A stretch of 64,000 bases of DNA, from contig CAZREA010000002.1 of the NCBI GenBank assembly GCA_964599455.1, positions 51,810-115,809 of the forward strand, read 5' to 3'. The notes beneath the pieces were generated by a model, which ran no database searches, was not told the DNA's origin, and saw only the letters and a list, made by a program, of their open reading frames with translations. This document shows positions 10,422-60,298 of this stretch, piece by piece. The position numbers and the translations under genes were made by a program. Numbering within the stretch: the stretch's first letter is position 1; each line of letters starts with the position of its first letter. The stretch is from an uncultured Gammaproteobacteria bacterium. GTDB taxonomy: Bacteria; Patescibacteriota; Patescibacteriia; UBA9934.

Positions 10422-10575
10422 AGGGAAAAATGGATATTACGGATTGAGGCGGATAGAAACGGATGTGAGAAGGCTTCTAAGAAAATGATAACATGAAAAG
10501 AAAGGCTCAGCAGAACAGATGCCTCCTGACGCTTGCCCTGAGCAACTGCGAAGGGTCGGGATGACAAACGAATCT

Positions 10576-13038
10576 CTACCCCCTCACCTCAGCGTCAAAC
10601 TTCACTTTCATCGCTTCCAGGATACCGCGAATCGTTGTCTCTACTTCTTCTGAGGTAAGCGTTCGGTCAGATGTACCAAAAGTGAACGAGAAGGTCAGGC
10701 TCTTTTGTCCATCCGTAACTCCTTTTCCGCGATAGATTTCGATAAGATCAACATCTCGCACGAGTGGCTGTTTCTGCAAAAGCGTGATGATGTCGGCGTA
10801 CTCAATGCGTTCAGGCAAAGCAAATGAAAGGTCGCGTTGCACCGTTGGAAAGGCAGAAACAGGAGCATATGAACGCCGCTGTTTCATGAACGGAATACAA
10901 CGTTCGATATCCAACACACAGGCAAACACCGGGCGCACAATACCAAATGCATCTTGGTTGGCTAATGCAACTTGTCCGATGAAACCGATCTCCGTTTTTT
11001 CATTTCCTAATTGCGCAATGATTTTTGCCGATCGGCCTGGATGCCAAGGAAGTTGATCGGCTATGCGTTCAAGCGATATTCGCAAACCTGTCCTTTGCGC
11101 AACAACACTCAACGCTCCACGGATACGACGAAACGCTTGTTCAGGATCTTTAGCACCATACGTTGCAAACACAAGCTGCATGCGCTCGTCGGGAATATCG
11201 TTTTCGCGATAAAGATAGATACGAGAGAGCTCAAATACATCCGCAGCTGCTTCGACCATTTCATTCTTGACAATATCGCGCAACACAGACGGCATCAGGC
11301 TAGTACGCAAATAACCCAAATCTTCCGACAACGGGTTCCAAACTTTGATCGCTTCAACGGGAGATAAACCGTAGCGTTCAAGATCTTTCGCCTCAATAAA
11401 AGAGTATCCGAAAAATTCCGTGAATCCTTCTTCGGCAAGCATGCGCTTTATCCGCCCTTCCCATACGAGCGACACATCATCGACATATGCTGGCGGTGGT
11501 GCAGTCGGCAATTCACACGGCATGTGGTGATAGCCATACATGCGAGCGACCTCCTCAGTGAGATCTACCTCGTGTTCGATATCATGATCGCGCCAATACG
11601 GAACAGTAGCGGTCACACGAGATCCATTCACTGAAAGAATAAAACCAAGACGTTCAAGGATCTTCTTCATCTCATCATCTGAAATACTCACTCCAATACG
11701 ATCACAGATCTTTTTAAACAATACCGGGTACGATTGCGTTTTATATGCAGCTGCTCGAACATCAATCGGAGCACTTGCAAGCCTACCGCCCGCGATTTCG
11801 GTTGCGAGTTTGACCGCATACGCAAGCGCAGCCGGAAGCGCTTCGGTTGAGAGTCCTTTTTCAAATAATAACTGTGAATCAGAATAAAGATTCAGTTCAC
11901 GTGCGGTCTTGCGAACGGAAACCGGCTCGAATGTCGCCGCTTCAAACACCACGATGCTCGTCGCATCAGTCGTGCCGCTTTCCTGTCCGCCCATAACTCC
12001 AGCGACGGCAATGGGCTTGTCAGCATCGGCAATCACCAAATGCTTAGTTTGCAATTGATAGGTCTTGCCATCAAGTGCAACGAGAGATTCACCTTTTTGT
12101 GCTTTGCGCACAATAATTTGCTTGCCAGAGAGTTTCTCGCCATCAAAAGCGTGCAAAGGCTGACCGAATTCGTGCAAAACAAGATTCGTAATATCGACAA
12201 TATTGTTGATGGGTCGATGTCCGGCCATGAGGAGTTTTTTTTGCAGCCACCATGGAGATGGACCGACTTTAACCCCTTCAACCACAGCAGCCATGTAGCG
12301 TGGGCAGAGTTTGGGATCTTGGATGGTAACGGATAGTGACGGATTGGCAACGGATGGGACGGACCCTCCTACGCTCTCACCAGCACTTGAGCTTCGGAGG
12401 GCAGGTAAAACGGATTGCGGATCTTGTTGCAAAAGATGCGCCTGATATGTCCCCGATACCGCTGCAGCGCATTCTCGAGCAAGACCGGCGATGCCCATGC
12501 AGTCTGGACGATTCGTTGTTACTTCGATATCAAAAATGACATCATCAAGCTCAAGCGCTTGAGCAATTGGGGTTCCAGCCGCAGCATTGGTGAGCGTTGT
12601 CAGATCCCAAATTTCTCTTTCAGCGCACGCAAGTTTTTCAAATCCCACTTCAACGGAAGCACAAATCATACCTACGCTTTTCACGCCACGGATCTCAGTC
12701 TCGGCGAGTTCAACGAGATCGCCTTCGCCATGCCATTTCACTTTTGATCTGGGAAGTGCAACAAAAACTCTTTGTCCTTCGTATAAATTTGTTCCTCCAC
12801 ACACAATTTCAACCGTCTTCTCGCCAATATCAGTAACGGCAATACGCAACTTGTTTGCATTAGGATGTGCTTTCAGTTCCTTAATAACACCCACGACCAT
12901 GTGCGCAAATCGCTCAGCGACGTTGTCGATATGTTCTACCGACATCGACCGAAGACTGACTTCTTTGGCGAAGTCTTGCGGCGAGAGATCGGTTTGAAGG
13001 TATTCTTTTAACCAAGAGTAAGAAGCGAGGATGTTCAT
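10576..13038 (-). CDS. pheT: phenylalanine--tRNA ligase beta subunit
   Basis: 820 aa; tRNA-binding N-terminus, B3/4, B5 and FDX-ACB domains. Contains an in-frame ~95-bp insertion element encoding ALRSSSAGESVGGSVPSVANPSLSV. Confidence 0.95.
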   Translation of the reverse strand: MNILASYSWLKEYLQTDLSPQDFAKEVSLRSMSVEHIDNVAERFAHMVVGVIKELKAHPNANKLRIAVTDIGEKTVEIVCGGTNLYEGQRVFVALPRSKVKWHGEGDLVELAETEIRGVKSVGMICASVEVGFEKLACAEREIWDLTTLTNAAAGTPIAQALELDDVIFDIEVTTNRPDCMGIAGLARECAAAVSGTYQAHLLQQDPQSVLPALRSSSAGESVGGSVPSVANPSLSVTIQDPKLCPRYMAAVVEGVKVGPSPWWLQKKLLMAGHRPINNIVDITNLVLHEFGQPLHAFDGEKLSGKQIIVRKAQKGESLVALDGKTYQLQTKHLVIADADKPIAVAGVMGGQESGTTDATSIVVFEAATFEPVSVRKTARELNLYSDSQLLFEKGLSTEALPAALAYAVKLATEIAGGRLASAPIDVRAAAYKTQSYPVLFKKICDRIGVSISDDEMKKILERLGFILSVNGSRVTATVPYWRDHDIEHEVDLTEEVARMYGYHHMPCELPTAPPPAYVDDVSLVWEGRIKRMLAEEGFTEFFGYSFIEAKDLERYGLSPVEAIKVWNPLSEDLGYLRTSLMPSVLRDIVKNEMVEAAADVFELSRIYLYRENDIPDERMQLVFATYGAKDPEQAFRRIRGALSVVAQRTGLRISLERIADQLPWHPGRSAKIIAQLGNEKTEIGFIGQVALANQDAFGIVRPVFACVLDIERCIPFMKQRRSYAPVSAFPTVQRDLSFALPERIEYADIITLLQKQPLVRDVDLIEIYRGKGVTDGQKSLTFSFTFGTSDRTLTSEEVETTIRGILEAMKVKFDAEVRG
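12326..12420. repeat. RPE-like palindromic element, copy 1, in frame inside pheT
   Basis: aacggat direct repeats, then gaccctcc...ggagggca inverted arms; homologous copies at 20036-20125 and 56483-56576. Confidence 0.7.
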
Positions 13039-15250: not shown

Positions 15251-16243
15251 TCATAATCCTTTCGTAAGGTTCATACCGCTTGTGATATGACGAATGGTCG
15301 AGGTGAGCCTGTAGGCATTCGCATAAGTACAAAGACCTAAATAAGAGCTCACATTCTTTTTCGTCACTCGTCGAACCATCCTGTGCGCAGTATCAGGACG
15401 TATGATCGTTGCATAGGGGAGAAGAATATAACCAAGGAAGTCAAAACCCTGCGTCCAGGTACGAACATGTATTTTATCTGGATGTAATTCGATCTTGAGA
15501 TTCTTACGAAGAAAAGCATCGACCTGCCCTGCTAATGCAAATCCTTTCTTTCGAGAAGAGGTGAGCATAATAAAATCGTCACAATAACGAAGATACTGTT
15601 TTACTCTGAGCGTTTGTTTTACATACCAATCAAGCTCGTGAAGATATACATTGGCAAATAATTGACTCGTAAGGTTGCCAAGAGGAATTCCTGTTCCGGG
15701 CGACACGGAAAAACTTGTAACGATATTACGCAGTAATGTCATTACGCGCGGGTCCGATATCCGTTTGGAGAGAAGCTGGAGCAGAATGACATGATTGATT
15801 GACGCAAAAAATTTTCGTACGTCACACTTTATCGCATGTATGGTTTTTGTATTGTTCTTTGATGTTTGGTGAGCGAACTTTCGCAACCTTCGTACTGCAG
15901 CATGAGTACCCTTACCAACTCTACACGAATAGCTGTCATGAATAAACCGTTCCTCAAATAACGGTTCGATAACATTGACAATGGCCTGATGAACAACTCT
16001 ATCCTTTACCTCTGCTTTATGGATTATCCGCTCCTTTGGGTCGTGAATGGAAAAGGCTTGATAAGGGCGGTGGCGATAGCTACCCGAAATAAGCTCTTCT
16101 CGTATTGCAAAAAGGTTGTCCTCAAGCCTCCGTTCGAATACCATGACGTCTTCACGAGTCCGCTTACCTTTACGAAAACGTTCCCACGCCAAAAGCAGAT
16201 TCTCAATCGATGCCAAGTGCTCGAATACATCGTTATTCCCCAT
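15251..16243 (-). CDS. diversity-generating retroelement (DGR) reverse transcriptase
   Basis: RT motifs: SYSCRVGKGTHAAV (motif 2), KCDVRKFFASINH (motif A), LGNLTSQLFANVYL (the DGR-type IGxxxSQ motif B'), and RYCDDFIML (YxDD). At 330 aa it is the size of bRT. TR/VR repeats lie adjacent. Confidence 0.85.
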   Translation of the reverse strand: MGNNDVFEHLASIENLLLAWERFRKGKRTREDVMVFERRLEDNLFAIREELISGSYRHRPYQAFSIHDPKERIIHKAEVKDRVVHQAIVNVIEPLFEERFIHDSYSCRVGKGTHAAVRRLRKFAHQTSKNNTKTIHAIKCDVRKFFASINHVILLQLLSKRISDPRVMTLLRNIVTSFSVSPGTGIPLGNLTSQLFANVYLHELDWYVKQTLRVKQYLRYCDDFIMLTSSRKKGFALAGQVDAFLRKNLKIELHPDKIHVRTWTQGFDFLGYILLPYATIIRPDTAHRMVRRVTKKNVSSYLGLCTYANAYRLTSTIRHITSGMNLTKGL

Positions 16244-16265
16244 TCTATGAATGACACTATTTTCT

Positions 16266-16275
16266 CCCCCCCCCC
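16266..16275. repeat. C10 homopolymeric tract in the 56-bp RT/avd divergent intergenic region
   Basis: ctcccccccccccaggc; a slipped-strand-prone tract positioned where divergent promoters would lie. Confidence 0.6.
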
Positions 16276-16299
16276 AGGCTTAACCGAGAAGAGCGACAA

Positions 16300-16656
16300 T
16301 TGCTCCGCGGAGGTCCCGGCGATATTCCCATCGTTCATACGCTCTATGACACCTATGTTTTATGGAATGAAGTGTTAGAAAAGTTTCCTAAACTGCAACG
16401 TTACACGCTCGGTGAAAACTGTTCGCGATACTTACTCTGTACCCTCGAGCTTCTTCTCGCTGCCGCAACATTAGCAAGCCAAACAGAGAAATTGATAAAA
16501 CTGAAAGAAGCAAGCGCGAAGATTGATACCGTGAAACTCCTTGTACGACTCTGTAAAGATTGTAAATGCATAACCAATATCCACTATCTCAAAACCGAAT
16601 CCAAACTTATTGATATAGGAAAGATGTTGGGAGGATGGATAAAATCTGCAGGATAA
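16300..16656 (+). CDS. avd: Avd-like accessory protein (four-helix-bundle family), encoded opposite to RT and TR
   Basis: FPKLQRYTLGENCSRYLLCTLELLLAAATLA and a C-terminal IDIGKMLGGWIKS resemble the four-helix-bundle/Avd family (BPP-1 Avd ends VGRILGSWIARV). The minus strand has no ORF of 60 aa or more here. Start codon uncertain. Confidence 0.6.
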   Translation: MLRGGPGDIPIVHTLYDTYVLWNEVLEKFPKLQRYTLGENCSRYLLCTLELLLAAATLASQTEKLIKLKEASAKIDTVKLLVRLCKDCKCITNIHYLKTESKLIDIGKMLGGWIKSAG

Positions 16657-16658
16657 GA

Positions 16659-16690
16659 GAAGGAGCGCCTTTCGGCGCTCCTTTGCCTTG
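16659..16690. terminator. perfect hairpin between avd (+) and TR (-), putative bidirectional terminator
   Basis: aggagcgcc-tttc-ggcgctcct with T-rich flanks. Confidence 0.5.
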
Positions 16691-16696
16691 ATGAGA

Positions 16697-16832
16697 ACTC
16701 CCGAGGGGAGGGACGGAGTAACCGGGGTTGTCGTTGCTCCGCCAATTGGCGTTCAGCTTGACCTTACCGGAATCGGTGTTGCGGTTCACAACCACCACGT
16801 TCTGCCACTCCTCGTTATCATTCTCGGGGACG
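16697..16832 (-). repeat. DGR template repeat (TR)
   Basis: 136 bp, about 88% identical to 17280-17415. All 16 mismatches are T in this copy on the plus strand, i.e. A on the minus (sense) strand. The in-frame TR translation (NDNEEWQNVVVVNRNTDSGKVKLNANWRSNDNPGYSVPPLG) is rich in AAC/AAT Asn codons. Confidence 0.85.
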
Positions 16833-17279
16833 CCTCCCTTTACATCCCATTCTTCCAGGCCACCGGGTACAGACGCATCCAAGGCCAGCCGAATCTCCAG
16901 ACCCCTGGCTCGTACTGACCGTACCCTGAATTTTATGCGGAACCTGTCGCCGAATACAGGCTGGTTCCAAAATGGAATGCGGAGTGCTCGTCAATCCGCG
17001 CCGCACGCTCCGGCATTCAAGGGAAAACGGGATTCCGACGGCATATTGGGACTGCAAGAGATTTCGGCGATCCACCTTCGCCAAGGCTACGGTGGACGCA
17101 CTGGCCTACTTTCCGCTCACAGTTTACCAAAAAGTTGGACAAATAGAAGAGCGGCACCTGGGGAATACCGTCCTTCGTAGGAGGCAAAAACCAGATGCCG
17201 CGAGTCCGCTGCGCGGACGGACGGCCAAGGGACAAATCCCAAGGCCTCCGAGCGCCAAGCGTTCAAGTGCCGAGTATCA

Positions 17280-17415
17280 CTACCCGAGGGGAGGGACGGA
17301 GTAACCGGGGCGGTCGTCGCTCCGCCAACTGGCGAACAGCCTGACCTCACCGGAACCGGTGTGGCGGAGCACAACCACCACGCTCTGCCACTCCTCGCCA
17401 CCATTCTCGGGGACG
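17280..17415 (-). repeat. DGR variable repeat (VR) at the 3' end of the target gene
   Basis: Counterpart of the TR; VR carries C/G/A wherever TR has A (sense strand). It ends exactly at the target-gene stop codon (TAA, 17280-17282). The identical 28-nt GC-rich 3' segment cccgaggggagggacggagtaaccgggg is initiation-of-mutagenic-homing (IMH)-like. Confidence 0.85.
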
Positions 17416-18212
17416 TTAGCCTCATAGCCAGCGCAGTACCAGGCACAGGTCTTGTCGTAGTCGATGACGCCCACCCGCTTCGGGAACAACCACGCGAGCA
17501 CCAGGCCTTCGTCCGCGAGGGACTGGGCATTGCGCACCGACGTGACGTCTTTTCGCTTGCGGTTGGCCGAGAGGTCATTGATGATGACCCACTCGACGAC
17601 CGCGTGGTGTGTCTCATTGCCGTTGAGGAGCCGAAGGCGCTCCACGTCCTCGCCCTGATAAGGCATCGGCTTGGAGTGCAGCAGCTCCCAGCGCCAGTGC
17701 TTGGGGTGGACACGACGCATCGCTTCCCAGTGACGCTCGAAGGTAAGGTACACGCCCTCCGTGCCCTCGCCCCAGCGGATGCGGAGGCTGCGAAACGCAT
17801 CCTTGCCCTTGGGCCAGGCGGGAGCAGTATCGGCGAGCCGGAAGAACACGTCTTCAGTGATACCCCAGTTACCGGCCTCGTTCTGGGCACGAAGGGCGGC
17901 GAGCTGCTCGTCCACCGTCTGCTCGAATGGGTTGGCGTCGGCCTTCTGGTTCGCGGCCTCCACCACGAACTTCATCAGCTCGTCGTCGCCGAGAAGCTTG
18001 AGGAAGAGGGCCATGGAGCCGCCGAAGCGGAAGAAACGGCCGAAGAACTCATCGGCCTGACGGAGAAACACGTTCATCACGCACCTCGAAGCCATCTCTG
18101 ACCAGCCCACAGGAACGCGGCATGCGCCCCATGAACCCTGCCTCTGTTTATTGAGAATGGCGGTTTGGAGCCAAAAAAGCCACAAAACGCCATGCTCAAC
18201 TACGAGAAACAA
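17280..18212 (-). CDS. DGR target protein (variable C-terminus), GC-rich
   Basis: 310-aa ORF at about 60% GC whose last ~45 codons are the VR (…NGGEEWQSVVVVLRHTGSGEVRLFASWRSDDRPGYSVPPLG). N-terminal start uncertain; no obvious signal peptide; fold not recognised. Confidence 0.7.
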   Translation of the reverse strand: MFLVVEHGVLWLFWLQTAILNKQRQGSWGACRVPVGWSEMASRCVMNVFLRQADEFFGRFFRFGGSMALFLKLLGDDELMKFVVEAANQKADANPFEQTVDEQLAALRAQNEAGNWGITEDVFFRLADTAPAWPKGKDAFRSLRIRWGEGTEGVYLTFERHWEAMRRVHPKHWRWELLHSKPMPYQGEDVERLRLLNGNETHHAVVEWVIINDLSANRKRKDVTSVRNAQSLADEGLVLAWLFPKRVGVIDYDKTCAWYCAGYEANVPENGGEEWQSVVVVLRHTGSGEVRLFASWRSDDRPGYSVPPLG

Positions 18213-19116: not shown

Positions 19117-20517
19117 TCATGCAAAAGTCTGCAACAGCGACAGTATTTCCTCTTTCTTCTCTTGCAAAAGAGCTTCGTCTTTCGCTTCAATCGTCACCCG
19201 CAAAATAGGCTCCGTGTTTGACGCACGAATCAAAAACCACCAATCACGATCAAACTCGCAACGCACGCCATCGATCGTCATCACGGTTGTTGCTTGCGAG
19301 GCATATTTTTCTTTTAACGCATCAATAGCTTCTTGTTTTTGATGAATTTCCAGATTCATTTCTTCGCTTTGGGCATAACGGCGATACGGGCGAACAAGAT
19401 CGGCAAATGATTGTCCAGATTTCTTCCACGTTGTGGCTATGCGAACAAAGGCGTGCTCAGTTGCTTCCAAAAAATGAAATTCGGGAAAGAAAAAATGGCT
19501 CGAGAATTCTCCGGCAAGCACAGCGTTTTCTTTTTTCATCAGTGCACTAATTTTAGTACGACCAACCGGTGACCAAATTACCTCTCCACCATGCGTTTCA
19601 ATTGCATCATTTACTGCGCGACTTTGATTCACGCACACCAATACTTTTCCGGATCCATGTTGTCGCAGATATTCCGTAGCCATGACCGCCAATGCCATGT
19701 CGCCCGTCAACGGCACACCTTCGTTATCAACAAAACCAATACGATCGGCATCGCCATCGAAGGCGACACCGAAATCCGCATTTACTTCCAAGACTTTTGC
19801 TCGGAGCACATCAAGCGTCTCAGTCTTTGCAGGATTCGCTTCGTGGTTTGGGAAATGCGCATCAGGTTCGGCATACAGTTCAACGCATTTGATGCCCAGT
19901 TTTTCACACAAGGGCTTAAACGCAACCGCCCCCATACCATTGCCATAATCAACGACGATTTTGATCCCATGAAGCGATTCGATACCGGGCCATCGCATGC
20001 AGGCTTGGAGATAATCTTCGAGGACGGCGACGGATTTCACGGATCCTTGCACAGACCCTCCTATACTCTTCCCTTCGCTTTCGCTCAGGGTCGAGCTTCG
20101 GAGGGCAGGTGGAACGGATGGCACCGGACTCTCTTCGATGATCTTATACATGTCACTGCCAGTGATCGGCGAACCATCGCCCAACGTGATTTTGATTCCA
20201 TTATATTCAGCAGGATTATGCGAAGCAGTGATCATGATGCCCGCGTTAGCTCCATATAATCCGACGACTGCATAATAAAAAAGAGGTGTCGTGCACATGC
20301 CAATATCAAGCACGTTCACACCAAGACTTGTCAGAGCTTCAGTCGCCGCCAAAGCGAGTTGCGGACTCGTCTCACGCATATCACGTCCGACGACCACGGT
20401 TTTTGCGCCTGTTTTTGCGACCAAAGCCCGTGCTACTGCTTCGGCTAAGGTTGGCGTTATTTCTGCAATCAAACCGCGAATATCGTAGGCACGAAAAATG
20501 TGTTGAGGAAAAAGCAT
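19117..20517 (-). CDS. phosphoglucomutase/phosphomannomutase family protein
   Basis: Active-site GIMITASHNPAEYNGIK and a four-domain layout. Contains an in-frame RPE-like insertion encoding PPALRSSTLSESEGKSIGGSVQGSV. Confidence 0.9.
   Translation of the reverse strand: MLFPQHIFRAYDIRGLIAEITPTLAEAVARALVAKTGAKTVVVGRDMRETSPQLALAATEALTSLGVNVLDIGMCTTPLFYYAVVGLYGANAGIMITASHNPAEYNGIKITLGDGSPITGSDMYKIIEESPVPSVPPALRSSTLSESEGKSIGGSVQGSVKSVAVLEDYLQACMRWPGIESLHGIKIVVDYGNGMGAVAFKPLCEKLGIKCVELYAEPDAHFPNHEANPAKTETLDVLRAKVLEVNADFGVAFDGDADRIGFVDNEGVPLTGDMALAVMATEYLRQHGSGKVLVCVNQSRAVNDAIETHGGEVIWSPVGRTKISALMKKENAVLAGEFSSHFFFPEFHFLEATEHAFVRIATTWKKSGQSFADLVRPYRRYAQSEEMNLEIHQKQEAIDALKEKYASQATTVMTIDGVRCEFDRDWWFLIRASNTEPILRVTIEAKDEALLQEKKEEILSLLQTFA
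20036..20125. repeat. RPE-like palindromic element, copy 2, in frame inside the PGM/PMM gene
   Basis: gaccctcc...gagcttcggagggcaggt..aacggat core shared with copy 1; the loop sequence is diverged. Confidence 0.65.
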
Positions 20518-29285: not shown

Positions 29286-30680
29286 GTGTCTTTTTCTCGT
29301 ACTCTCTTCTCTTCCCTTTTGCTGTGCATACTGACAGCTCTTTTTCCTTTTTCTCAAGCTCAAGCTGCCATAAGTTGCTCGACCAATGTATCGTGCATCT
29401 GTTCGGGAAGCATGGACGATGGCACGGTTCCGGGAAGAGAGTTGAGTTATGATTACGCAAAAAGCAAGGAGTCTTGTTACGAACGGTGCGCAGCCTTTGG
29501 CAGCATATCGTACGAACTGCAGTGCAATGGAACTACGCTTGAACAGGGCAATATTCAGCAACTGGACTCAGTAAATACTTCCCGTGTTGATGAAAAAAAA
29601 ATTCCTAATCTCAATGTCGAAATTCCGGGATTAACAGAAGAAGAATTGGAAGCCTCCGTCACTACCGATGAGCAAGGCAATATTGAAACTAATCTTATTG
29701 GCGTCTATGTAAATGCCGTTTTCATGTACGGCATCGTGGTGGCTACCATCGTCGCCGTCGTAATATTGATGATTGCAGGTTTCCAATACATGACCGCGGG
29801 AGGGAATAAGAAAGGTGTCACCCAAGCCAAAGAGCGGATTCGTAATACGGTCATTGGCCTCATTCTCCTTTTAAGTTGTTACAGCATTGCCTTTTTAATC
29901 GATCCACGCACCACGCGTTTTAGTCCGCTATCGTTACAAAATATTGATGCCATTGAATACTTCCCCCCGGAAGGAGAGGATCTTGATCTCACACCCAATG
30001 ACAGCTTAACCGGTGCAACTGAAGCCATGTCCGGCAATTACTTAAACGCCCCCAGCGCATATATGCGCTACCCTGCCGGAGCACGACTTGATGGAGAAAC
30101 CTTGGAGGCGCTTCGAGAAGCTGCGAAGGATTTTTATACAACCTATAAAAAACGGATTGTCATTACCTCGGCCACGCGTGATTTAGAAAAACAAGCAAGA
30201 CTTTTTTATAATAATTGCCTCAAAACTGGCGGTGTTTGCTCGATACCAACTTGTAATCCGGCCAGTAGCAGCGTCATTTTGAAACAAGATGGTTTATACA
30301 AACTCACCGGTACCCTTCGGGGCGTCACCAATGGCACTACCATCATTACGGAGATGGTGGCCAATGCCAAATACGGCAACTGTCCCCACACCTCAGCCGT
30401 TGCCATTGATGCCTGGTGTGACGACGGTGGATCAAACTATCAACACAATCCTACTTGTCAGGCAAATCTCATTACCACCATGATTAAACATGGATTTTGT
30501 CGTCTCAAATCCGAAGTTTGGCATTTTGAATTGAATACCAAAAAAGTTTCCACCAATTGCTCAGCCAGTAATAGCTCGATCATTTATAGCACCGCCAATT
30601 CTGGCAATGTCGCCCCTCCTGCAAATTGCCAAAAATGGGATTTTAAAAAACATACGTGTATTGTAAAGGTGGTGGAGTGA
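29286..30680 (+). CDS. secreted Cys-rich protein with a VirB2/TrbC-like two-TM hairpin and a C-terminal M15 (VanY-like) peptidase domain
   Basis: Signal peptide ending FSQAQA; about 10 Cys in the first 80 residues; TM-KKG..AKERIRN-TM hairpin typical of T4SS pilins; then M15 motifs ITSATRDLEKQARLF, HTSAVAIDAW and EVWHFEL (compare SGYRS..Q, SxHxxGxAxD, EWWHFE). Confidence 0.55.
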   Translation: MSFSRTLFSSLLLCILTALFPFSQAQAAISCSTNVSCICSGSMDDGTVPGRELSYDYAKSKESCYERCAAFGSISYELQCNGTTLEQGNIQQLDSVNTSRVDEKKIPNLNVEIPGLTEEELEASVTTDEQGNIETNLIGVYVNAVFMYGIVVATIVAVVILMIAGFQYMTAGGNKKGVTQAKERIRNTVIGLILLLSCYSIAFLIDPRTTRFSPLSLQNIDAIEYFPPEGEDLDLTPNDSLTGATEAMSGNYLNAPSAYMRYPAGARLDGETLEALREAAKDFYTTYKKRIVITSATRDLEKQARLFYNNCLKTGGVCSIPTCNPASSSVILKQDGLYKLTGTLRGVTNGTTIITEMVANAKYGNCPHTSAVAIDAWCDDGGSNYQHNPTCQANLITTMIKHGFCRLKSEVWHFELNTKKVSTNCSASNSSIIYSTANSGNVAPPANCQKWDFKKHTCIVKVVE

Positions 30681-39304: not shown

Positions 39305-40603
39305 ATGCCTTCCCTCGCTACGGCTCCCAATCCTTGGCCTTTGCTCATTTGTATCGTCGGTCTTCTGTTCATTGCCGGTATCGCCTTTACGGCCGTATGT
39401 CTTTTGCAATTTATCAAGAGAAATCCTCATCTGAAAAAAATCGTCACCGTCATAACCCTCATCATTGCAATTGGTTTTGTGATCATGTTCGGATTGTCAC
39501 GTATCACAAAGACGAGTCAGGTTGTGGTTGTTGATGCAACCTGCAATATTCCCGGAGCAGATACGTTTACCAGGATTTTTCCAGGAAAGGTATGGATGAA
39601 AGATGTAACGAGTGGTGATATTTTTCCCTTGCGCTTCCCTACTGCAGGACCGGAAGGGAGTCGCATGAAAATTTTTGATCACGATGGAAAGCAAGTTAAT
39701 ACGTGGCACAGCTATACGTTTTGCGATCCCGATGCGCCATTTCCCGAGCAAGTCAAAGATATTTTTGATGCATCGCAACCGATCACCGTTACCTATAATC
39801 GTCTCGGCATTATCCGCTCTTGGCAACTAATCGAAGTAGTATCTCCCGATGCACTCGATGGAGAGATGAGCAATGGTCTTCCGGATTGGGTTGAAGGAAG
39901 TATGTCATTCAATGAATACACCGATCTCACCATCGATCTGAATGGCGATGATCGCAAGGAAAAGGTGACGCTTACTCTACACCCTGCAACGTCCGATGAT
40001 GAAGAATCGACCACTCTGACGATTGATAATCAAACGGTAAAAATTCCTGGAAGAAATCCCCAAGGCTATTTTGGTGTTGTCGATTTTGATACCAACGATC
40101 TCACGAAAGAAATCGCGGTGAGTGATCCTGGTCCAAGCGGCGACTATACGACGACATTTTATCGCTACGATGGTCAACGAATCATCGCGCTCGGAACAAT
40201 TTCTGGACTCTACGAAGCGATGCGTTTTGATGGAGAAGGCAAACTCACCACAAGCACCCGAGCACACATCTTGGATACTTGGTTCTATGACGACGAATAC
40301 GTACTCTCAAACAATGTTCTCGTGCGGCAAGAAAAAGAATTTTATGCACGCGTCAATCATCAGAATCCAGTAACGGTTTTATCATCCATAACCTTGCGTC
40401 TTTCGCCACTTGAAGATCAGACTATTTTCACCGTTGAGCCGGGAGAAGTCGTGATCATCACGGGATGCGATGACATCGAGTGGTGCGCACTCATAAACGA
40501 TAAAGGCATGCAGGGATGGTTTTCACTCAAACAATATGGACTCGTAGGAGAAGATGCGGTTTCAGCAGATACGCTTTTTAATGGCTTGTCGTGGGCGGAT
40601 TAA
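39305..40603 (+). CDS. hypothetical membrane protein with a C-terminal SH3b-like segment
   Basis: Two N-terminal TM helices; the C-terminal CDDIEWCALINDKGMQGWFSLKQYGL is SH3b-like. Confidence 0.4.
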   Translation: MPSLATAPNPWPLLICIVGLLFIAGIAFTAVCLLQFIKRNPHLKKIVTVITLIIAIGFVIMFGLSRITKTSQVVVVDATCNIPGADTFTRIFPGKVWMKDVTSGDIFPLRFPTAGPEGSRMKIFDHDGKQVNTWHSYTFCDPDAPFPEQVKDIFDASQPITVTYNRLGIIRSWQLIEVVSPDALDGEMSNGLPDWVEGSMSFNEYTDLTIDLNGDDRKEKVTLTLHPATSDDEESTTLTIDNQTVKIPGRNPQGYFGVVDFDTNDLTKEIAVSDPGPSGDYTTTFYRYDGQRIIALGTISGLYEAMRFDGEGKLTTSTRAHILDTWFYDDEYVLSNNVLVRQEKEFYARVNHQNPVTVLSSITLRLSPLEDQTIFTVEPGEVVIITGCDDIEWCALINDKGMQGWFSLKQYGLVGEDAVSADTLFNGLSWAD

Positions 40604-41514
40604 CTATGGAGCTTCCCTCTCAGATAAAAAATCTCTATTGCCATTGGGATCATCATACCGGAGGTGTGCATGAGACTCGAGAGAAGAGCTCTATACTCAT
40701 TCCCGACGAGCTCAAATGGTTCATTCATGAACGACTCGACATCTGGAAAAAGAAAACAGATAGCGAAGCGCCGCCGTATACAACCGATCCAATTTTATCC
40801 AAGTATCGTTTTTGTAATATCTTTCGCGAGTTTGATCGACAGACCATTGAGTTTCATACGCTTCTCAATCCTATTCGAGATAACTTTCCGCTCTGGCTTT
40901 TGAACATGTTTTATTGTCGGATGGTGGCACGAACTTCAACCATTAAACAGGTGGGGTTGTTGTCATTTGATGAAAAGATAAACGCGATTCGGTTGCAAAA
41001 ACTGCTCAACTCACCACGACCACGGTTCGGGACCCCGTACGTTTTCCCTATCAGTGTCATTCAAAAGAGTTCAACACCAACACGCGAGCTTTTTATTACT
41101 TCGTACTTGCCAAAAATCATATCTGCAATTGCTAACGAGATTCAAACCTGGAAAAAGATGTCGGTATACGATGGCGTTGCTCGCATCTTGCCCTTATTCG
41201 GATTCAATCTGCATTTCTTGTGGACCGAAGTGCTTATCGACGTCGCTTACCAATATCCGGAACACATTGATCTCTTTGCGCGTTTCCCGGTCGGACCTGG
41301 AGCACTGCCAACATTCCGTAGACTTGCTCCGCATCAAGATCCGAGTCTGCTTGCATCCGAACTCGCTTGCATACCCCTCGACACCAACATTACTATCAAT
41401 GGCAAACCCTTACGATTATCCGCAGAAAATTGGGAAGGTATCGGCTGCGAGTTTCGGAAATATACGAATCTCAAGCAAGGGAAAGGAAGAAAGAGGGTTT
41501 ATCAAAAAGAATAA
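40591..41514 (+). CDS. hypothetical protein
   Basis: 307-aa ORF; family not recognised. Confidence 0.35.
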   Translation: MGGLTMELPSQIKNLYCHWDHHTGGVHETREKSSILIPDELKWFIHERLDIWKKKTDSEAPPYTTDPILSKYRFCNIFREFDRQTIEFHTLLNPIRDNFPLWLLNMFYCRMVARTSTIKQVGLLSFDEKINAIRLQKLLNSPRPRFGTPYVFPISVIQKSSTPTRELFITSYLPKIISAIANEIQTWKKMSVYDGVARILPLFGFNLHFLWTEVLIDVAYQYPEHIDLFARFPVGPGALPTFRRLAPHQDPSLLASELACIPLDTNITINGKPLRLSAENWEGIGCEFRKYTNLKQGKGRKRVYQKE

Positions 41515-45380: not shown

Positions 45381-45438
45381 CGTTGTTTGGCCATTTTCTT
45401 CGTTTTTAGAGAAAGAAAATGGCGAGCGAAACGTTGTC

Positions 45439-45538
45439 ATTTGGAGATAGTTTTTGTCCGAAGAGCGAGGACCGGCGAGGCGTACTACCCATGTACGGTG
45501 AGCCGGCCGCAGCGATGAGGGCAAAAAATAGCCCAAAT
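45439..45538 (+). ncRNA. candidate structured small RNA/leader element, copy A (paralog at 62255-62356)
   Basis: About 100 nt, ~90% identical to copy B. Differences fall in hairpin loops or as compensatory pairs (ccgGc/gCcgg versus ccgAc/gTcgg). Hairpins gtcc-loop-ggac, cgtac-loop-gtacg and gggc-aaaaaata-gccc. Lies 17 nt upstream of tRNA-Arg. Strand assumed. Confidence 0.45.
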
Positions 45539-45555
45539 GCCGACGTTTCGATAAT

Positions 45556-45632
45556 GCGCTCGTAGCTCAGTTGGATAGAGCATCAGCTTGCGGAGCTGAG
45601 GGTCGCACGTTCGAGTCGTGCCGAGCGCACCA
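45556..45632 (+). tRNA. tRNA-Arg, anticodon read as GCG, CCA encoded
   Basis: Acceptor gcgctcg/cgagcgc; D-loop with A20; anticodon stem tcagc/gctga with loop tTGCGGa; T-arm gcacg-TTCGAGT-cgtgc; discriminator A. Confidence 0.75.
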
Positions 45633-46985: not shown

Positions 46986-47798
46986 TTACCGAGACTTTTT
47001 TGCGAAAGAAAAAAGCACACTTCCTATATACAATCCCAACGCAACTAACACAATGGTCGCTCCTGCCGCCAAATCAGCCACAAACGATAACCACAGCCCC
47101 ACCATAATCGCAATCACCGCATTGATAACTGCAATACCTAATGTCGCTACAAATCCTTTTCCCCAGCGCTCGGCAGCTAATACGGGAATAACCATGAGCG
47201 CACTTACCAAAAGTGCACCAACGACACGCATGCCCACAGCTACAACAACCGCAGCGAGAGCCGCAAAAAGCATCTCGTAGATAACCACCGGAATACCCTG
47301 CGCTTTTGCCAAACGATCATCAAAAGTAATAAGAAAGAATTCTTTATAAAAGAGAAAAATGATCAGGAGTGCAACAAAACCAATGCCATACATCACCGCG
47401 ACATCCATCCACGTTACTGCAGTGATACTGCCAAAAAGATACGAGAGAAGCTGCGTATTAAATTTCTTCACGAGCCCCATAACCACCACCGCAATCGCCA
47501 AACTTCCCGATAACACCAATGCCAGGGCTGCATCACCGGACAATTGACCCTTGCTGCGCAAACGCTCCATCACAAGCGCCGCCATCACGGCACTCATCAT
47601 CGCTGCCCACAACGACGACATGCCAAAGACAAATCCCAAGGCTACTCCGGCCAATGAGGCGTGCGCCAAGGTGTCGGCGAAAAACGATTGCCGTCGCGCC
47701 ACAAAAAAAGTGCCGACCGTGGGCGCCAACAAACCCACCGCCAGCCCTGCCAACAACGCACGCTGCAAAAAGGCAAAAGTAAATAAAGCTTCAACCAT
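46986..47798 (-). CDS. znuB: metal ABC transporter permease (ZnuB/TroC-like)
   Basis: 8-TM ABC-3 family pattern; conserved FxxD and VGxxL motifs. Confidence 0.8.
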   Translation of the reverse strand: MVEALFTFAFLQRALLAGLAVGLLAPTVGTFFVARRQSFFADTLAHASLAGVALGFVFGMSSLWAAMMSAVMAALVMERLRSKGQLSGDAALALVLSGSLAIAVVVMGLVKKFNTQLLSYLFGSITAVTWMDVAVMYGIGFVALLIIFLFYKEFFLITFDDRLAKAQGIPVVIYEMLFAALAAVVVAVGMRVVGALLVSALMVIPVLAAERWGKGFVATLGIAVINAVIAIMVGLWLSFVADLAAGATIVLVALGLYIGSVLFSFAKKSR

Positions 47799-47802
47799 AG
47801 AA

Positions 47803-48978: not shown

Positions 48979-49076
48979 ATATTTCTATGCACGGAAGATT
49001 GATCATTCTTCATCAGGGCAAAACGACCCTTTTTCTATACTAAACGTCCATCATCCACCATATCCCATCCCTATCC

Positions 49077-49781: not shown

Positions 49782-49785
49782 GATT

Positions 49786-50742: not shown

Positions 50743-50756
50743 AATAAGAAAACGTA

Positions 50757-52003: not shown

Positions 52004-52006
52004 AGA

Positions 52007-53938: not shown

Positions 53939-53941
53939 AGG

Positions 53942-54643: not shown

Positions 54644-54652
54644 ACAAAAATA

Positions 54653-55221: not shown

Positions 55222-57171
55222 TCAAAACCGCAGTCGCTCGTTTAACCCCGACAACGCCTTTACTTCGGCGGGGCCCAGGCTTTCGTCGCCCTTGGCGCGC
55301 AAACGCGCAGCAATCTCGGCGATAGCAACTGCATTTTGTAACGATTCGGTCATCATGCGCACGTATACTGTTTGCAGCGGGCTTTTGCGCCAAGCTAAAA
55401 TACCACGAACCCGTTCTTGATAATCACTTTTTTCCAGCGTTTCCAACAATGATTCAATTTTTCGCACCGCTTCTTCGGGTTGTGGCGATAAACGACGAAA
55501 ATCTGCCAGATTCATGGAGGCAAGTTGCTCAATAGGCCCCATGAGCTTGTTGCCCGGAACGACATCAGCAACTTTCTTTTGCTGCGCAGGCTCTGTCACC
55601 GGTGGCACACTGCCTTTGGTTAGCATTACTTTTGCGGGTGCGGGTTTTACCTCTTGTGCACGCGCCGTTGCCGCCGTTGCCTGTGCCGCTCGTTCAGCAT
55701 GGGCGTCGCGTGCACCCGAAACTTGCGCGCCAGGAAGAATGGGCGCGATGGAATCCGTAGGCAGCGAACCGGTAAGCGCGGCAAATTTCTTATCAAGCAT
55801 TTCCGCTTCTTGCAGTTCGATGCGATCAGCATCACGCTCGGCTATTTCTTCATCTTTCCCATCAACCGCAGAAACGGCTTCACCCGCCAAGCGATACATT
55901 TCTAATCCCGCCTTTATAGCCTCTAGAAGAAGAGGCAAGTGTGCGCCTTTCACTCGATAATCTCTCTCTAAAATATCGTGTGTTTGATACAGATCACGAA
56001 TACCTCGCAACGTTTTTCCTGCGATATCAGCAAAAGCTGCACGCGGTAATTGTACTTCATCAAGTGTGGCCCCGGCTTTTTCTAAAATATTATCGATCGC
56101 CTTGGCGAAAGCACCTTGCAACGCTTCGGCATGAGTTTTGTAGAGCTTCTTTGCAAGCTTCACATCAGCGATATCGGGCTGCGCGATTGCGTCATCCTGA
56201 CTCTTCTTTGTAGCGGGGCGAGTGCGCGAGGGATCTATCGTGCCCTTCCCAACGCTCTGTTTCTTCGGTTGTTCATGCAAAATCTCACCGCTAATTACGG
56301 GAACCTGGGCTGCAACGGCATGCGTGGGCATGATTTCGAGAGCGTGGTCGGGGGGGGTGATGATGGGCGCTGGTTCGGCCGCATCTGATGCCTTTTCCCC
56401 TGCGGCAAGGGAGACGGGTCGGCTTGCCCTGAGCGACGGCGAAGGGCGACCCGTCTGTACGTCGACAGAAGGCGCATCATGTCCGCTATCCGTTTTACTT
56501 GCCCTCCGAAGCTCGAGTGTCGGTGAGAGCGTAGGAGGGTCCGTTTTTGATCCGTCCTTATCCGTTCCTACTTCCCCCAACTCCACGCCATTAATCTCCT
56601 CCCCCAATATCTTCATTACTGCGTCATTCTGCTCTTTCGATAATCCCAATCCACCAATATTCAACGATCGACCAAAAAAGGTTCGTAAACTGTCATCAGT
56701 TTTTTGACCCGCGAGGCGTTGTTCGAGCAAAAAAGCCAAACGTTTTATGAGCACATCCGAAAATTGCACATTTGCTTTTTGAGCAATACGCTCGGCAAAT
56801 TTCTCAGACGTAATCCGTTCTTTTTCAACACGAAGCGCGGGATACGCTTTCACATCTCCACCCCAGGCAACAATTTGCTTTTCAACACCAGGAAGATATT
56901 TCTCCAAGGGCAGCAATCGATATCCCGCCACATCAGCAGCAATCTGTTTGGCTTTTTCTTCATCAATCGCAAACGCTTCTGCAATCATGGTAGGCATGTC
57001 GGCTAAAGGAAGTTGGTCGTCGAGAATAGCATCAGCGAGATCGAGAAACTCATTCGTCCGATCTTCGGGGAGTTGATATTTTTGAACGAGTTCATCCAAG
57101 ACATCATAAATTTGCCCATCCTGAAGAAAAGCACGAGTCGATGAAATATTCAGCAGTTTTGCTAAAACCAT
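55222..57171 (-). CDS. hypothetical protein in the T4SS-like cluster
   Basis: 649 aa with no recognised motif; contains RPE-like copy 3 in the opposite orientation (encoding GTDKDGSKTDPPTLSPTLELRRASKTDSG). Confidence 0.5.
   Translation of the reverse strand: MVLAKLLNISSTRAFLQDGQIYDVLDELVQKYQLPEDRTNEFLDLADAILDDQLPLADMPTMIAEAFAIDEEKAKQIAADVAGYRLLPLEKYLPGVEKQIVAWGGDVKAYPALRVEKERITSEKFAERIAQKANVQFSDVLIKRLAFLLEQRLAGQKTDDSLRTFFGRSLNIGGLGLSKEQNDAVMKILGEEINGVELGEVGTDKDGSKTDPPTLSPTLELRRASKTDSGHDAPSVDVQTGRPSPSLRASRPVSLAAGEKASDAAEPAPIITPPDHALEIMPTHAVAAQVPVISGEILHEQPKKQSVGKGTIDPSRTRPATKKSQDDAIAQPDIADVKLAKKLYKTHAEALQGAFAKAIDNILEKAGATLDEVQLPRAAFADIAGKTLRGIRDLYQTHDILERDYRVKGAHLPLLLEAIKAGLEMYRLAGEAVSAVDGKDEEIAERDADRIELQEAEMLDKKFAALTGSLPTDSIAPILPGAQVSGARDAHAERAAQATAATARAQEVKPAPAKVMLTKGSVPPVTEPAQQKKVADVVPGNKLMGPIEQLASMNLADFRRLSPQPEEAVRKIESLLETLEKSDYQERVRGILAWRKSPLQTVYVRMMTESLQNAVAIAEIAARLRAKGDESLGPAEVKALSGLNERLRF
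56483..56576. repeat. RPE-like palindromic element, copy 3, in frame inside the 55222-57171 gene, inverted orientation
   Basis: The plus strand reads ccgctatccgttttacttgccctccgaagctcgagtgtcggtgagagcgtaggagggtccgtttttgatccgtccttatccgttcc, the reverse complement of the copy 1 form. Confidence 0.7.
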
Positions 57172-57177
57172 ACCTCC

Positions 57178-60249: not shown

Positions 60250-60298
60250 AGTAAACAGAAAAACGGCTCGAGTACATGAAGTACCCGAGCCGCACGAT

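What the first reader, a model, noticed from the sequence alone, without database searches (positions are those of the whole stretch)
12326..12420. A ~95-bp palindromic element inserted in frame into three unrelated genes (pheT, phosphoglucomutase, a T4SS-cluster gene), resembling Rickettsia palindromic elements (RPEs)
Three homologous copies (12326-12420, 20036-20125, 56483-56576) share the core gaccctcc..(loop)..gagcttcggagggca(g/a)gt(a/g)aaacggat with ccctcc/ggaggg inverted arms and flanking aacggat direct repeats. All three lie inside ORFs and preserve the reading frame without stop codons. Two are in one orientation (encoding ALRSS(S/T)..ES.G.S(I)GGSV..) and one is inverted (encoding GTDKDGSKTDPPTLSPTLELRRASKTD). 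PheT and PGM are conserved housekeeping proteins that do not normally carry this segment, so these are insertions of a selfish repeat that is tolerated as an extra surface loop. This is the hallmark of Rickettsia RPEs and is rarely reported elsewhere. The loop region differs between copies while the stems are retained, consistent with an RNA or DNA hairpin driving mobility.
Basis: seen in the sequence. Interest (0 to 1): 0.8.

Follow-up and report, generated by a model that had tools for sequence, protein, structure and literature searches.

The report
Hairpin repeat inserted in-frame in genes
A short hairpin-centred DNA repeat sits in frame inside three unrelated genes of an uncultured ultra-small (Patescibacteria) bacterium, adding a floppy loop to each protein; this copies what Rickettsia palindromic elements do, but it is an unrelated family whose hairpin core turns up in at least a dozen bacterial phyla.

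Summary
Three homologous copies of about 85-100 nt lie inside pheT, a phosphomannomutase/phosphoglucomutase gene and a 649-aa gene of a type IV secretion cluster. Two are in one orientation and one is inverted, and all keep the reading frame. Orthologues, including syntenic relatives, lack the segment, and the insert in the mutase is the only low-confidence coil in an otherwise confident AlphaFold model.

The host is a Patescibacteria (CPR) bacterium, not Rickettsia. The element is a mosaic. Only the central 38-50 nt is a hairpin: CCCTCC-TACGC-variable stem-loop-GCTTC-GGAGGG. The flanks are direct ACGGAT units about 10 nt apart.

That hairpin core matched 107 stretches of species-representative genomes from about 12 phyla. 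Its inner stem covaries, no Rfam family matches it, and it lies in frame in FtsK, PBP2 and AsnB-like genes of other CPR lineages.

It behaves like RPEs and intragenic REPs. It fails the defining features of GTAG and CGTC REPs and of MITEs, and no transposase was found.

The best reading is a non-autonomous, hairpin-based selfish repeat tolerated in protein loops. How it moves is inferred, not shown. I rate it a new variant of a known kind, of moderate to high interest.

The parts
12326..12425 (+). Copy 1 of the composite element, inside pheT (codons about 205-238). It has four ACGGA[T/C] units on the left and two on the right.
   Evidence: E = 4e-30. It encodes QSVLPALRSSSAGESVGGSVPSVANPSLSV.
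12364..12401 (+). Core hairpin of copy 1: CCCTCC-TAC-GCTC-(12-nt loop)-GAGC-TTC-GGAGGG.
   Evidence: The same fold is predicted on both strands.
20023..20123 (+). Copy 2 of the composite element, inside the phosphomannomutase/phosphoglucomutase gene (codons about 133-160).
   Evidence: E = 1e-21. It encodes SVPPALRSSTLSESEGKSIGGSV.
20056..20105 (+). Core hairpin of copy 2. Its loop is 12 nt longer than in copies 1 and 3.
   Evidence: z = -2.1 on the + strand and -3.9 on the - strand.
20071..20090 (+). Type-B mini-hairpin (CCC-TTCGC-TTTC-GCTCA-GGG) nested in the loop of copy 2.
   Evidence: The same nested form is seen in locus L085.
56479..56567 (-). Copy 3 of the composite element, inverted, inside the 649-aa gene of the type IV secretion cluster (codons about 202-231).
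   Evidence: E = 3e-25. It encodes GTDKDGSKTDPPTLSPTLELRRASKTDSG.
56502..56539 (-). Core hairpin of copy 3.
56422..56446 (-). Type-B mini-hairpin about 35 nt from copy 3, in the same ORF. It encodes part of RPSPSLRASRP.
   Evidence: (family D18, 92% identical to 10531-10555).
10531..10555 (-). Type-B mini-hairpin in the spacer just downstream of the pheT stop codon.
   Evidence: Gene calls for the same DNA place it between genes.
10440..10464 (+). Array of three CGGAT units exactly 10 nt apart, with no type-A hairpin, in the spacer downstream of pheT.
   Evidence: Such arrays match four times at three sites in the window, against 0.045 matches expected from shuffles.
10576..13038 (-). Host gene pheT (phenylalanyl-tRNA synthetase beta chain, 820 aa). 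The insert lies between the tRNA_bind and B3_4 domains.
19117..20517 (-). Host gene for phosphomannomutase/phosphoglucomutase (466 aa). The insert lies between domains I and II.
55222..57171 (-). Host gene for a 649-aa protein of a CPR-wide family. It lies next to PrgI-like, TraC-like and VirB4-like genes.

Best explanation
The three segments are copies of a small, non-autonomous mosaic repeat of the REP/RPE kind, carried by a Patescibacteria genome.

Each copy has a central imperfect hairpin, CCCTCC-TACGC-(variable stem-loop)-GCTTC-GGAGGG-CA(G/A)GT. On either side are direct ACGGAT units about one helical turn apart.

The copies entered, or were copied into, three unrelated genes at positions that encode variable surface loops or inter-domain linkers. 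They persist there for three reasons:
- the added length is a multiple of three;
- the element has one stop-free frame on each strand;
- the encoded Ser/Gly/Pro/Thr/Asp-rich peptide is a disordered loop that leaves the fold intact.

The unit that propagates is the nucleic-acid hairpin, not the peptide.

Shown here: homology of the copies, insertion relative to orthologues, loop location, both orientations, hairpin covariation, and cross-phylum presence of the core.

Inferred only: that spread happens by a hairpin-directed process acting in trans on single-stranded DNA, as in REP/RAYT or IS200/IS605 systems, which also lack terminal inverted repeats and target duplications. I give the selfish-insert reading about 0.7 and this particular mechanism no more than about 0.25.
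For: - Homologous copies: 92% over 63 nt between copies 1 and 3, and profile E-values of 1e-21 to 4e-30.
- PheT insertion: 820 aa against 793-809 aa in almost all of the 59 closest homologues. The extra residues sit in one linker.
- Mutase insertion: 466 aa against mostly 443-456 aa in 119 homologues. About 20 extra residues sit in one loop.
- Third protein: the closest homologue (54% identity, 560 aa) lacks residues about 199-263.
- Syntenic relatives: L112 carries both pheT and the mutase gene, and L114 carries the secretion cluster. Neither has the element.
- Structure: the AlphaFold2 model of the mutase has mean pLDDT 93.3. Its only low-confidence stretch is residues about 131-160, which is coil and coincides with the insert.
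- Opposite orientations give unrelated peptides, and exactly two frames are open per copy.
- All three units fold into the same hairpin on both strands.
- The core pattern matched 107 stretches of genome contigs (about 8-28 expected by chance, my own estimate). Of 108 hits, 103 carry the unspecified TACGC and a complementary stem.
- Inner-stem pairs covary: U-A 7, C-G 6, G-C 1 at one pair, and 0 of 500 shuffles reach the observed score.
- The same core lies in frame in FtsK (L070), PBP2 (L074) and an AsnB-like gene (L021) of other CPR lineages.
- No terminal inverted repeats and no consistent target duplication were found, which suits a mechanism not based on a DDE transposase.
Against: - No empty-site allele from the same species was available. 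The nearest orthologues are only about 60% identical, so the time and boundaries of insertion are not fixed.
- No transposase of any kind is in the 64-kb window (Pfam). No RAYT-like gene is in the window or in 107 other loci (tblastn).
- Hairpin stability is only modestly better than shuffles.
- Strict conservation of the core across phyla, with covariation, could equally mean a selected function rather than selfish spread.
- In copy 2 the two left ACGGAT units encode the GSV motif that is conserved in orthologues. Part of the 'element' there may therefore be native sequence.
- Only 64 kb of the genome was seen, so copy number and the intergenic-to-genic ratio are unknown.
Confidence: 0.68

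Rival explanations
1. The hairpin is a selected functional motif, for example an RNA or single-stranded DNA structure bound by a widely conserved host factor. It might act on transcript stability, termination, translation pausing or DNA topology. The genic copies would then be kept because they are useful, not because they are selfish.
For: - The core sequence is invariant across about 12 phyla, with compensatory changes in the inner stem.
- Most copies in other genomes are intergenic. In 36% of hits the longest stop-free stretch containing the hit is at least 250 codons, against 66% for random positions.
- The mismatched positions are conserved (T.C / A-T / C.T, which read G.A / A-U / A.G on the other strand), as expected for a recognition surface.
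- The stems are a Shine-Dalgarno-like GGAGG and its complement.
Against: - No Rfam family matches.
- In the window the element is transcribed in both orientations relative to the host genes, so no single RNA form is conserved.
- Syntenic relatives do well without it at all three sites.
- The distribution is patchy: 107 exact-pattern stretches among 185,579 species genomes.
- This reading does not exclude mobility.
Confidence: 0.18
2. The copies were not transposed. They spread by ectopic gene conversion or microhomology-mediated template switching between sites that already held ACGGAT-like sequence (Ser-Val or Thr-Asp codons).
For: - Every copy is bounded by ACGGA(T) direct repeats. Copy 3 has AAAACGGA twice, 51 nt apart.
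- In copy 2 the flanking ACGGAT units coincide with the native conserved GSV motif of the mutase.
- A hairpin-less ACGGAT array exists at 10440-10464.
- No transposase was found.
Against: - Copies 1 and 3 share about 20 of 22 nt of left flank in two unrelated genes, so the flank travels with the hairpin.
- AACGGAT is not otherwise enriched in the window: about 12 occurrences outside the elements against 10.8 expected.
- Across phyla there is no significant flanking direct repeat.
Confidence: 0.1
3. The segments are a shared peptide module, or ancestral low-complexity linkers that look alike by chance or composition.
For: - All three lie in linkers that vary in length among homologues.
- Other CPR mutases have other short inserts in the same loop.
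Against: - The similarity is in the nucleotides (92% over 63 nt) and spans opposite orientations that give unrelated peptides.
- None of about 180 homologues of PheT and the mutase has the segment.
Confidence: 0.02
4. The segments are an assembly or binning artefact, such as a chimeric repeat collapse.
For: The window comes from metagenome-derived sequence.
Against: - An identical PheT protein, with the identical element DNA, is found in two separate Logan assemblies (SRR16481182 and SRR16481183) and is also listed from NCBI.
- The frames are intact in all three genes.
Confidence: 0.02

Closest known systems
Rickettsia palindromic elements (RPE-1 to RPE-10)
   Same: - Short repeats with a palindromic part, inserted in frame into unrelated housekeeping genes, including translation genes.
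- They add a tolerated peptide loop.
- They also occur between genes.
- No transposase is encoded in the element (PMC10969869, PMC3733652).
   Different: - The host is Patescibacteria, not Rickettsia.
- The element is G+C-rich, whereas RPEs come from A+T-rich genomes (own knowledge).
- RPEs are described as each encoding a conserved peptide. Here the copies are read in both orientations and give unrelated peptides.
- RPE-4 and RPE-6 are CGTC-tagged REPs, and this element does not fit that pattern.
- Here the core is shared across phyla and the flanks are direct ACGGAT arrays.
- I ran no sequence comparison with RPE consensus sequences.
REP / BIME / REPIN elements, including intragenic GTAG and CGTC REPs (Di Nocera et al. 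2013, PMC3733652)
   Same: - A G+C-rich imperfect hairpin of 20-40 nt with conserved mismatches and a GC-flanked inner stem-loop.
- A mosaic association with other short motifs.
- Mostly intergenic, with a minority inside ORFs, including tRNA synthetase genes.
- Some families are shared by distant taxa.
- No terminal inverted repeats or target duplications.
   Different: - There is no unpaired GTAG or CGTC tag at one end. A GTAG exists on the reverse strand, but it lies 3' of the inner hairpin and is enclosed by the outer stem.
- No RAYT gene was found nearby.
- The flanks are direct oligomer arrays that differ between lineages.
Bacterial MITEs found inside genes (Correia/NEMIS, ERIC and others; review PMC10969869)
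   Same: Small non-autonomous repeats that can create in-frame fusions with host ORFs.
   Different: MITEs are defined by terminal inverted repeats and target-site duplications left by a DDE transposase. Neither is present here.
IS200/IS605-type single-strand transposition (own knowledge)
   Same: It depends on imperfect hairpins with conserved mismatches and leaves no terminal inverted repeats or target duplications. This is a possible model for how the element moves.
   Different: No TnpA (Y1 HUH) gene was found, no conserved cleavage tetranucleotide was identified, and the element is far smaller.

Membership tests
Rickettsia palindromic elements (RPE) | Resident in Rickettsia or Rickettsiales genomes. 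| tested here: not met
   The best named relatives of PheT and the mutase are Patescibacteria and Candidatus Uhrbacteria, at 50-58% identity. The window has 44-54% G+C.
Rickettsia palindromic elements (RPE) | Nucleotide similarity to an RPE family consensus. | not tested
A distant BLASTN search against 72,556 plasmids found no match to the element.
Rickettsia palindromic elements (RPE) | In-frame insertion of a palindromic repeat into unrelated protein-coding genes, tolerated as an extra peptide. | tested here: met
GTAG-tagged REP | An unpaired GTAG (or close variant) at one end of a 6-13 bp stem-loop. | tested here: not met
   GTAG occurs on the reverse strand (GCGTAGGAGGG). It spans the internal mismatch and the outer stem and lies 3' of the inner hairpin, so it is not a terminal unpaired tag (definition from PMC3733652).
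CGTC-tagged REP (includes RPE-4 and RPE-6) | A terminal CGTC, an 8-9 bp stem beginning with A-T pairs, a 4-5 nt loop and a CCA-like tail. | tested here: not met
   The stem is CCCTCC/GGAGGG (6 bp, with no leading A-T pairs), the loops are 12 nt or more in the window, and the tail is CA(G/A)G (definition from PMC3733652).
REPIN/RAYT system | A cognate RAYT (Y1 HUH transposase) gene in the genome, usually flanked by the repeats. | tested here: inconclusive
   - No such domain is in the ORFs of the window that I scanned.
- tblastn with four RAYT sequences against the window and 109 loci gave only hits with E >= 0.016.
- The best hit is not a Y1_Tnp domain by Pfam.
- Only 64 kb of the source genome was available.
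MITE | Terminal inverted repeats. | tested here: not met
   The ends are direct ACGGAT units. The only inverted repeat is the central hairpin.
MITE | Target-site duplication of fixed length. | tested here: not met
   - There is no common flanking duplication.
- The 8-nt GGATCTTG repeat is seen at copy 1 only.
- The 7-nt repeat at copy 2 lies in conserved native codons.
- Copy 3 has none outside the element.
- Across 107 other hits there is no significant excess.
Any curated RNA family (Rfam 15) | A match to a covariance model. | tested here: not met
   - Whole window at gathering thresholds: tRNAs only.
- Copy 1 at E <= 10: nothing.
- Nine other loci at E <= 1: nothing over the hairpin.

The most novel reading that the evidence does not exclude
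The invariant hairpin CCCTCC-TACGC...GCTTC-GGAGGG-CA is the active core of a previously undescribed, pan-bacterial superfamily of mosaic repeats. It is present in at least 12 phyla and in one cultured species, Niastella soli. It either moves between phyla or is recognised by a universal host factor. It recruits lineage-specific oligomer arrays as arms, and in genome-reduced Patescibacteria it repeatedly colonises loops of essential proteins (PheT, PMM, FtsK, PBP2, AsnB-like). That would make it a general source of protein-loop innovation in that radiation.
Probability: 0.3. Interest if true: 0.7.

Novelty: new variant of a known kind. Interest (0 to 1): 0.55.

Why it matters
In-frame colonisation of essential genes by palindromic repeats is best known from Rickettsia. 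Finding the same behaviour in Patescibacteria, with an unrelated element, suggests that it goes with reduced, host-dependent genomes in general.

Two further points would interest people who study repeats:
- The hairpin core is conserved to the nucleotide across about 12 phyla and shows covariation, yet it matches no Rfam family and neither REP superfamily as described in PMC3733652.
- The same loop of the mutase carries other short inserts in other CPR lineages. This hints at loops that tolerate, or attract, such inserts.

There are practical consequences too:
- Such inserts inflate protein lengths and spawn spurious 'hypothetical' ORFs in metagenome annotation.
- They can mislead alignments of marker genes such as pheT.
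- One cultured carrier, Niastella soli, makes experiments possible.

Tried and rejected
- Rfam: nothing at the elements, in the whole window or in nine other loci.
- Protein search with the concatenated insert peptides: 74 candidates, none scored E <= 10.
- Metagenome scan for the core plus the ACGGA flank (CTTCGGAGGGCARGTNNAACGGA): 0 hits. The composite is therefore not in the JGI metagenome contigs.
- Other collections: one hit for the core in 2.9 million viral contigs and none for copy 1 in plasmids, so there is no sign of a phage or plasmid vector.
- Walking out of the window by exact-protein look-ups: I gained only about 3 kb on the left (L110). Three look-ups failed, probably because the genes were called with different starts.
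- RAYT or Y1 transposase: not found.
- Target duplication: the 8-nt repeat at copy 1 is not matched at the other copies. The 7-nt repeat at copy 2 lies in native conserved codons, so I rejected it.
- Generalised hairpin with any stem sequence around TACGC...GCTTC: 103 of 106 hits use the CCTCC stem, so the stem itself is conserved and not only the internal loop.
- ACGGAT as a CsrA-type RNA site: rejected. In copies 1 and 2 and in the spacer array the transcript carries the complement.
- The DGR reverse transcriptase next door as the mobilising enzyme: no evidence links it to the element.
Full report

Yes.
- A repeat search pairs 12359-12421 with 56482-56544 at 92% complementarity over 63 nt. 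It pairs 12368-12418 with 20072-20122 at 75% identity.
- The 15-mer GAGCTTCGGAGGGCA occurs exactly three times.
- A profile built from the three copies recovers only them in 64 kb. The E-values are 4e-30, 3e-25 and 1e-21, and the next hit has E = 9.3.
- The copies lie in ORFs 10576-13038, 19117-20517 and 55222-57171, all on the minus strand.
- Each copy has exactly two stop-free frames, one on each strand, and the host gene uses one of them.

**2. Anatomy**

The element is a mosaic, not a 95-bp palindrome.
- The centre is an imperfect hairpin. It has a 6-bp outer stem (CCCTCC/GGAGGG), then a T.C mismatch, an A-T pair and a C.T mismatch (TAC against TTC). A 4-bp inner stem (GCTC/GAGC) follows, closed by a 12-nt loop.
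- All three units are predicted to fold this way on both strands, with z-scores of -1.3 to -2.3 against shuffles. The full 90-95 nt is not unusually stable for copies 1 and 3.
- The flanks are direct repeats of ACGGA(T/C), 9-12 nt apart. There are four on the left of copy 1, three on the left of copy 3, and one or two on the right of each.
- Counted as the ACGGA unit that abuts the hairpin, the hairpin itself, and the 8-nt tail CA(G/A)GT(A/G)(A/G)A that runs up to the next ACGGA, the unit is 51 nt in copies 1 and 3 and 63 nt in copy 2. Both lengths are multiples of three.
- Copy 2 has a second, smaller hairpin in its loop: CCC-TTCGC-NNNN-GCTCA-GGG, which I call type B. Type B also occurs alone at 56422-56446, in the same ORF as copy 3. 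It occurs again at 10531-10555, in the spacer after pheT. These two copies are 92% identical.
- The same spacer holds a hairpin-less array of CGGAT units exactly 10 nt apart, at 10440-10464. Arrays of this kind are expected 0.045 times in shuffled sequence.

**3. Are they insertions?**

The host is a member of the Patescibacteria (CPR). The best named relatives of both enzymes are 'Patescibacteria group' and 'Candidatus Uhrbacteria', at 50-58% identity. The closest unnamed relatives are about 61% identical.

*PheT*
- It is 820 aa, against 793-809 aa for almost all of the 59 closest homologues.
- The excess sits in one linker between the tRNA_bind and B3_4 domains. The E. coli structure sequence is also shorter in this region.

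*The mutase*
- It is 466 aa, against mostly 443-456 aa in 119 homologues. About 20 extra residues sit in the loop between domains I and II.
- An AlphaFold2 model built on 82 sequences has mean pLDDT 93.3 and pTM 0.92. Its only weak stretch is residues about 131-160, which is coil and coincides with the insert.

*The 649-aa protein*
- It belongs to a large family: 2,119 cluster representatives match at E <= 0.001.
- The family has conserved N- and C-terminal parts and a variable middle. The closest member (54% identity, 560 aa) lacks residues about 199-263, which hold copy 3 and the type-B hairpin.

*Syntenic relatives*
- L112 (NCBI GCA_964414795.1) has ClpB, M48 peptidase, LemA, PMM, M50 peptidase, PheS, PheT, DnaE and ThrRS genes in the same arrangement as the window. 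Its PheT is 803 aa and its PMM is 450 aa.
- L114 has the 560-aa homologue followed by PrgI-like, TraC-like and VirB4-like genes, then ZnuA and ABC transporter genes, as in the window.
- Neither locus contains the element.

*Caveat*
- No relative closer than about 60% identity is available, so exact boundaries and age cannot be fixed.
- In copy 2 the two left ACGGAT units encode the GSV motif that orthologues conserve. Either part of that flank is native, or the element landed beside a look-alike site.

**4. What travels is nucleic acid**

Copies 1 and 2 are read as ...PALRSS..GES.GGSV..., while the inverted copy 3 is read as ...TDPPTLSPTLELRRASKTD.... No common peptide exists, so a protein-module explanation fails. 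An identical PheT protein and identical element DNA appear in two independent assemblies. This rules out an assembly artefact.

**5. The core is not private to this genome**

I scanned one genome per species (185,579 species) for CCCTCCTA-N10-40-GCTTCGGAGGGCA. The scan found 107 stretches. By my own estimate, about 8 are expected for uniform base composition and at most about 28 for G+C-rich DNA.

- Of 108 hits, 103 also carry the unspecified CGC after TA and a fully complementary 5-nt stem.
- In the 17 distinct 31-nt versions, the two free inner-stem pairs covary (U-A 7, C-G 6, G-C 1 at one pair; C-G 10, U-A 2, G-C 1, G-U 1 at the other). None of 500 shuffles reaches the observed covariation score.
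- By record title, the hosts include the following groups:
  - Patescibacteria: Saccharibacteria, Parcubacteria, Uhrbacteria, Shapirobacteria, Wirthbacteria and Peribacteria.
  - Alphaproteobacteria: Rhizomicrobium, Caulobacteraceae, Reyranella, Dongia and a Rickettsiales MAG.
  - Other phyla and groups: Omnitrophota, Planctomycetota, Verrucomicrobiota, Acidobacteriota, Bacteroidota, Balneolaceae, Melioribacter, Margulisiibacteriota, Cloacimonadota and Neomarinimicrobiota.
  - One carrier is a cultured isolate, the Bacteroidota species Niastella soli MAH-29.
- A few hits (Streptomyces, Porphyromonas) look like chance.
- The profile of the window's element matches these loci only over the hairpin, not over the ACGGAT flanks. 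A metagenome scan for the core plus the ACGGA flank found nothing. The flanks are therefore lineage-specific.
- Other lineages flank the same core with other short oligomer arrays, sometimes in inverted orientation.
- The syntenic relative L112 has two inverted type-B-like hairpins between inverted oligomer arms in an intergenic spacer.
- Most hits elsewhere are intergenic. In 36% of hits the longest stop-free stretch containing the hit is at least 250 codons, against 66% for random positions.
- In other CPR genomes the core sits in frame in recognisable FtsK, PBP2 and AsnB-like proteins.
- The invariant part of the core is stop-free in five of the six frames, as the sequence shows directly.
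- Other CPR mutases carry different short inserts in the very same loop, for example LLTKEGQGEVSV and SPLQGEGRGG. I did not examine their DNA.

**6. How it most likely works**

*Shown:*
- a multi-copy, hairpin-centred repeat;
- insertion relative to orthologues, in both orientations;
- tolerance in disordered loops;
- a structure maintained by compensatory change.

*Inferred:*
- That it is a non-autonomous selfish element mobilised in trans.
- It has no terminal inverted repeats and no consistent target duplication, and its hairpin carries conserved mismatches. These features fit single-strand, hairpin-directed systems (REP/RAYT, IS200/IS605) better than MITEs moved by DDE transposases.
- No enzyme was found. 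The window's ORFs include no transposase, and four RAYT queries gave nothing convincing in the window or in 109 loci.

*Rival readings:*
- A selected structural motif recognised by a common host factor remains open, because conservation and covariation argue for it. However, both orientations relative to transcription occur in the window, and syntenic relatives lack the element.
- Spread by gene conversion or template switching at ACGGAT microhomology is a lesser rival.

**7. Comparison with what is known**

- Functionally the element matches RPEs and the intragenic REPs catalogued by Di Nocera et al. That catalogue includes REPs inside tRNA synthetase genes and equates RPE-4 and RPE-6 with CGTC-tagged REPs (PMC3733652). 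The MITE review also covers in-frame RPE fusions (PMC10969869).
- As a family member it fails the defining features:
  - It has no terminal GTAG or CGTC tag.
  - It has no terminal inverted repeats and no target duplication.
  - The host is not Rickettsia.
- No Rfam family matches it. Searches of the paper library for the core sequence strings returned only papers unrelated to bacterial repeats. A search combining REP or REPIN terms with CPR names showed no paper among the 15 listed that linked the two. That library is incomplete, so prior description elsewhere cannot be excluded.

**8. Verdict**

It is imprecise on four points:
- family membership;
- how much of the element is palindromic;
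- how rare such inserts are;
- whether the mobility mechanism has been shown.

I class it as a new variant of a known kind. The cross-phylum core is the more novel lead. Interest: 0.55.

Noticed in passing
window 15251-18212: A complete diversity-generating retroelement. It has a reverse transcriptase (15251-16243, -), a bAvd-like accessory gene (16300-16656, +), a template repeat at 16700-16832 and a variable repeat at 17283-17415, at the 3' end of ORF 17280-18212 (-). All 16 mismatches between the repeats are at T on the + strand, which is A on the coding strand. This is the adenine-specific signature of such elements.
   Followed up: partly
window 45429-45546 and 62245-62363: A repeat of about 115 nt, about 90% identical. 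The first copy lies directly upstream of a tRNA gene (45556-45629) and the second has no tRNA after it. The two copies bracket the 16.8-kb block that holds the type IV secretion cluster and the Zn/ABC transporter genes. It could be a duplicated promoter or leader, a small RNA, or an att-like boundary.
   Followed up: partly
proteins P0142, P0150, P0160, P0186, P0188, P0193, P0199, P0202, P0220, P0237; P0015, P0033, P0036: Other CPR phosphomannomutases carry different short inserts at exactly the loop that copy 2 occupies, for example LLTKEGQGEVSV, PPLQEGESGSLLPSREAPPAKE and SPLQGEGRGG. Some PheT orthologues have inserts in the same linker as copy 1. This suggests that these loops are hit repeatedly by other repeat families. 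I did not examine their DNA.
   Followed up: no
L093 7400-8000 (Niastella soli MAH-29, cultured): One intergenic stretch holds a type-A hairpin, a type-A variant, a type-B hairpin and arrays of GGCAAT(A/G)G units. The same mosaic system therefore exists in a cultivable Bacteroidota species.
   Followed up: partly
L112 3236-3549: The spacer between the M48 peptidase and LemA genes in the syntenic relative holds two inverted type-B-like hairpins (GATCC-TGAGC-TCG-GCGAA-GGATC and GGTCC-TTCGC-TGTC-GCTCA-GGATCC). They sit inside long inverted arms made of AGTTTGA-type oligomers, in a REPIN- or BIME-like layout.
   Followed up: partly
window 46986-62191 and 29286-30680: A Patescibacteria-type type IV secretion cluster. 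It has a PrgI-like gene (54653-55393), a VirB4-like ATPase (52007-53938), an M23 peptidase (60299-62191) and large ORFs with no Pfam match (57178-60249, 1023 aa). A separate gene at 29286-30680 has a T4SS_pilin domain. The gene order matches L114.
   Followed up: partly
window 40591-41514: This ORF matches the helical domain of 5-hydroxymethyl-dU DNA kinase (PF18723, E = 8e-14). That domain is usually tied to phage DNA hypermodification (own knowledge), so it is unexpected in this chromosomal setting.
   Followed up: no
L100 (Rickettsiales bacterium MAG-70): A 58-nt nested form of the same hairpin core occurs in a Rickettsiales MAG. It may be worth checking against RPE families.
   Followed up: no
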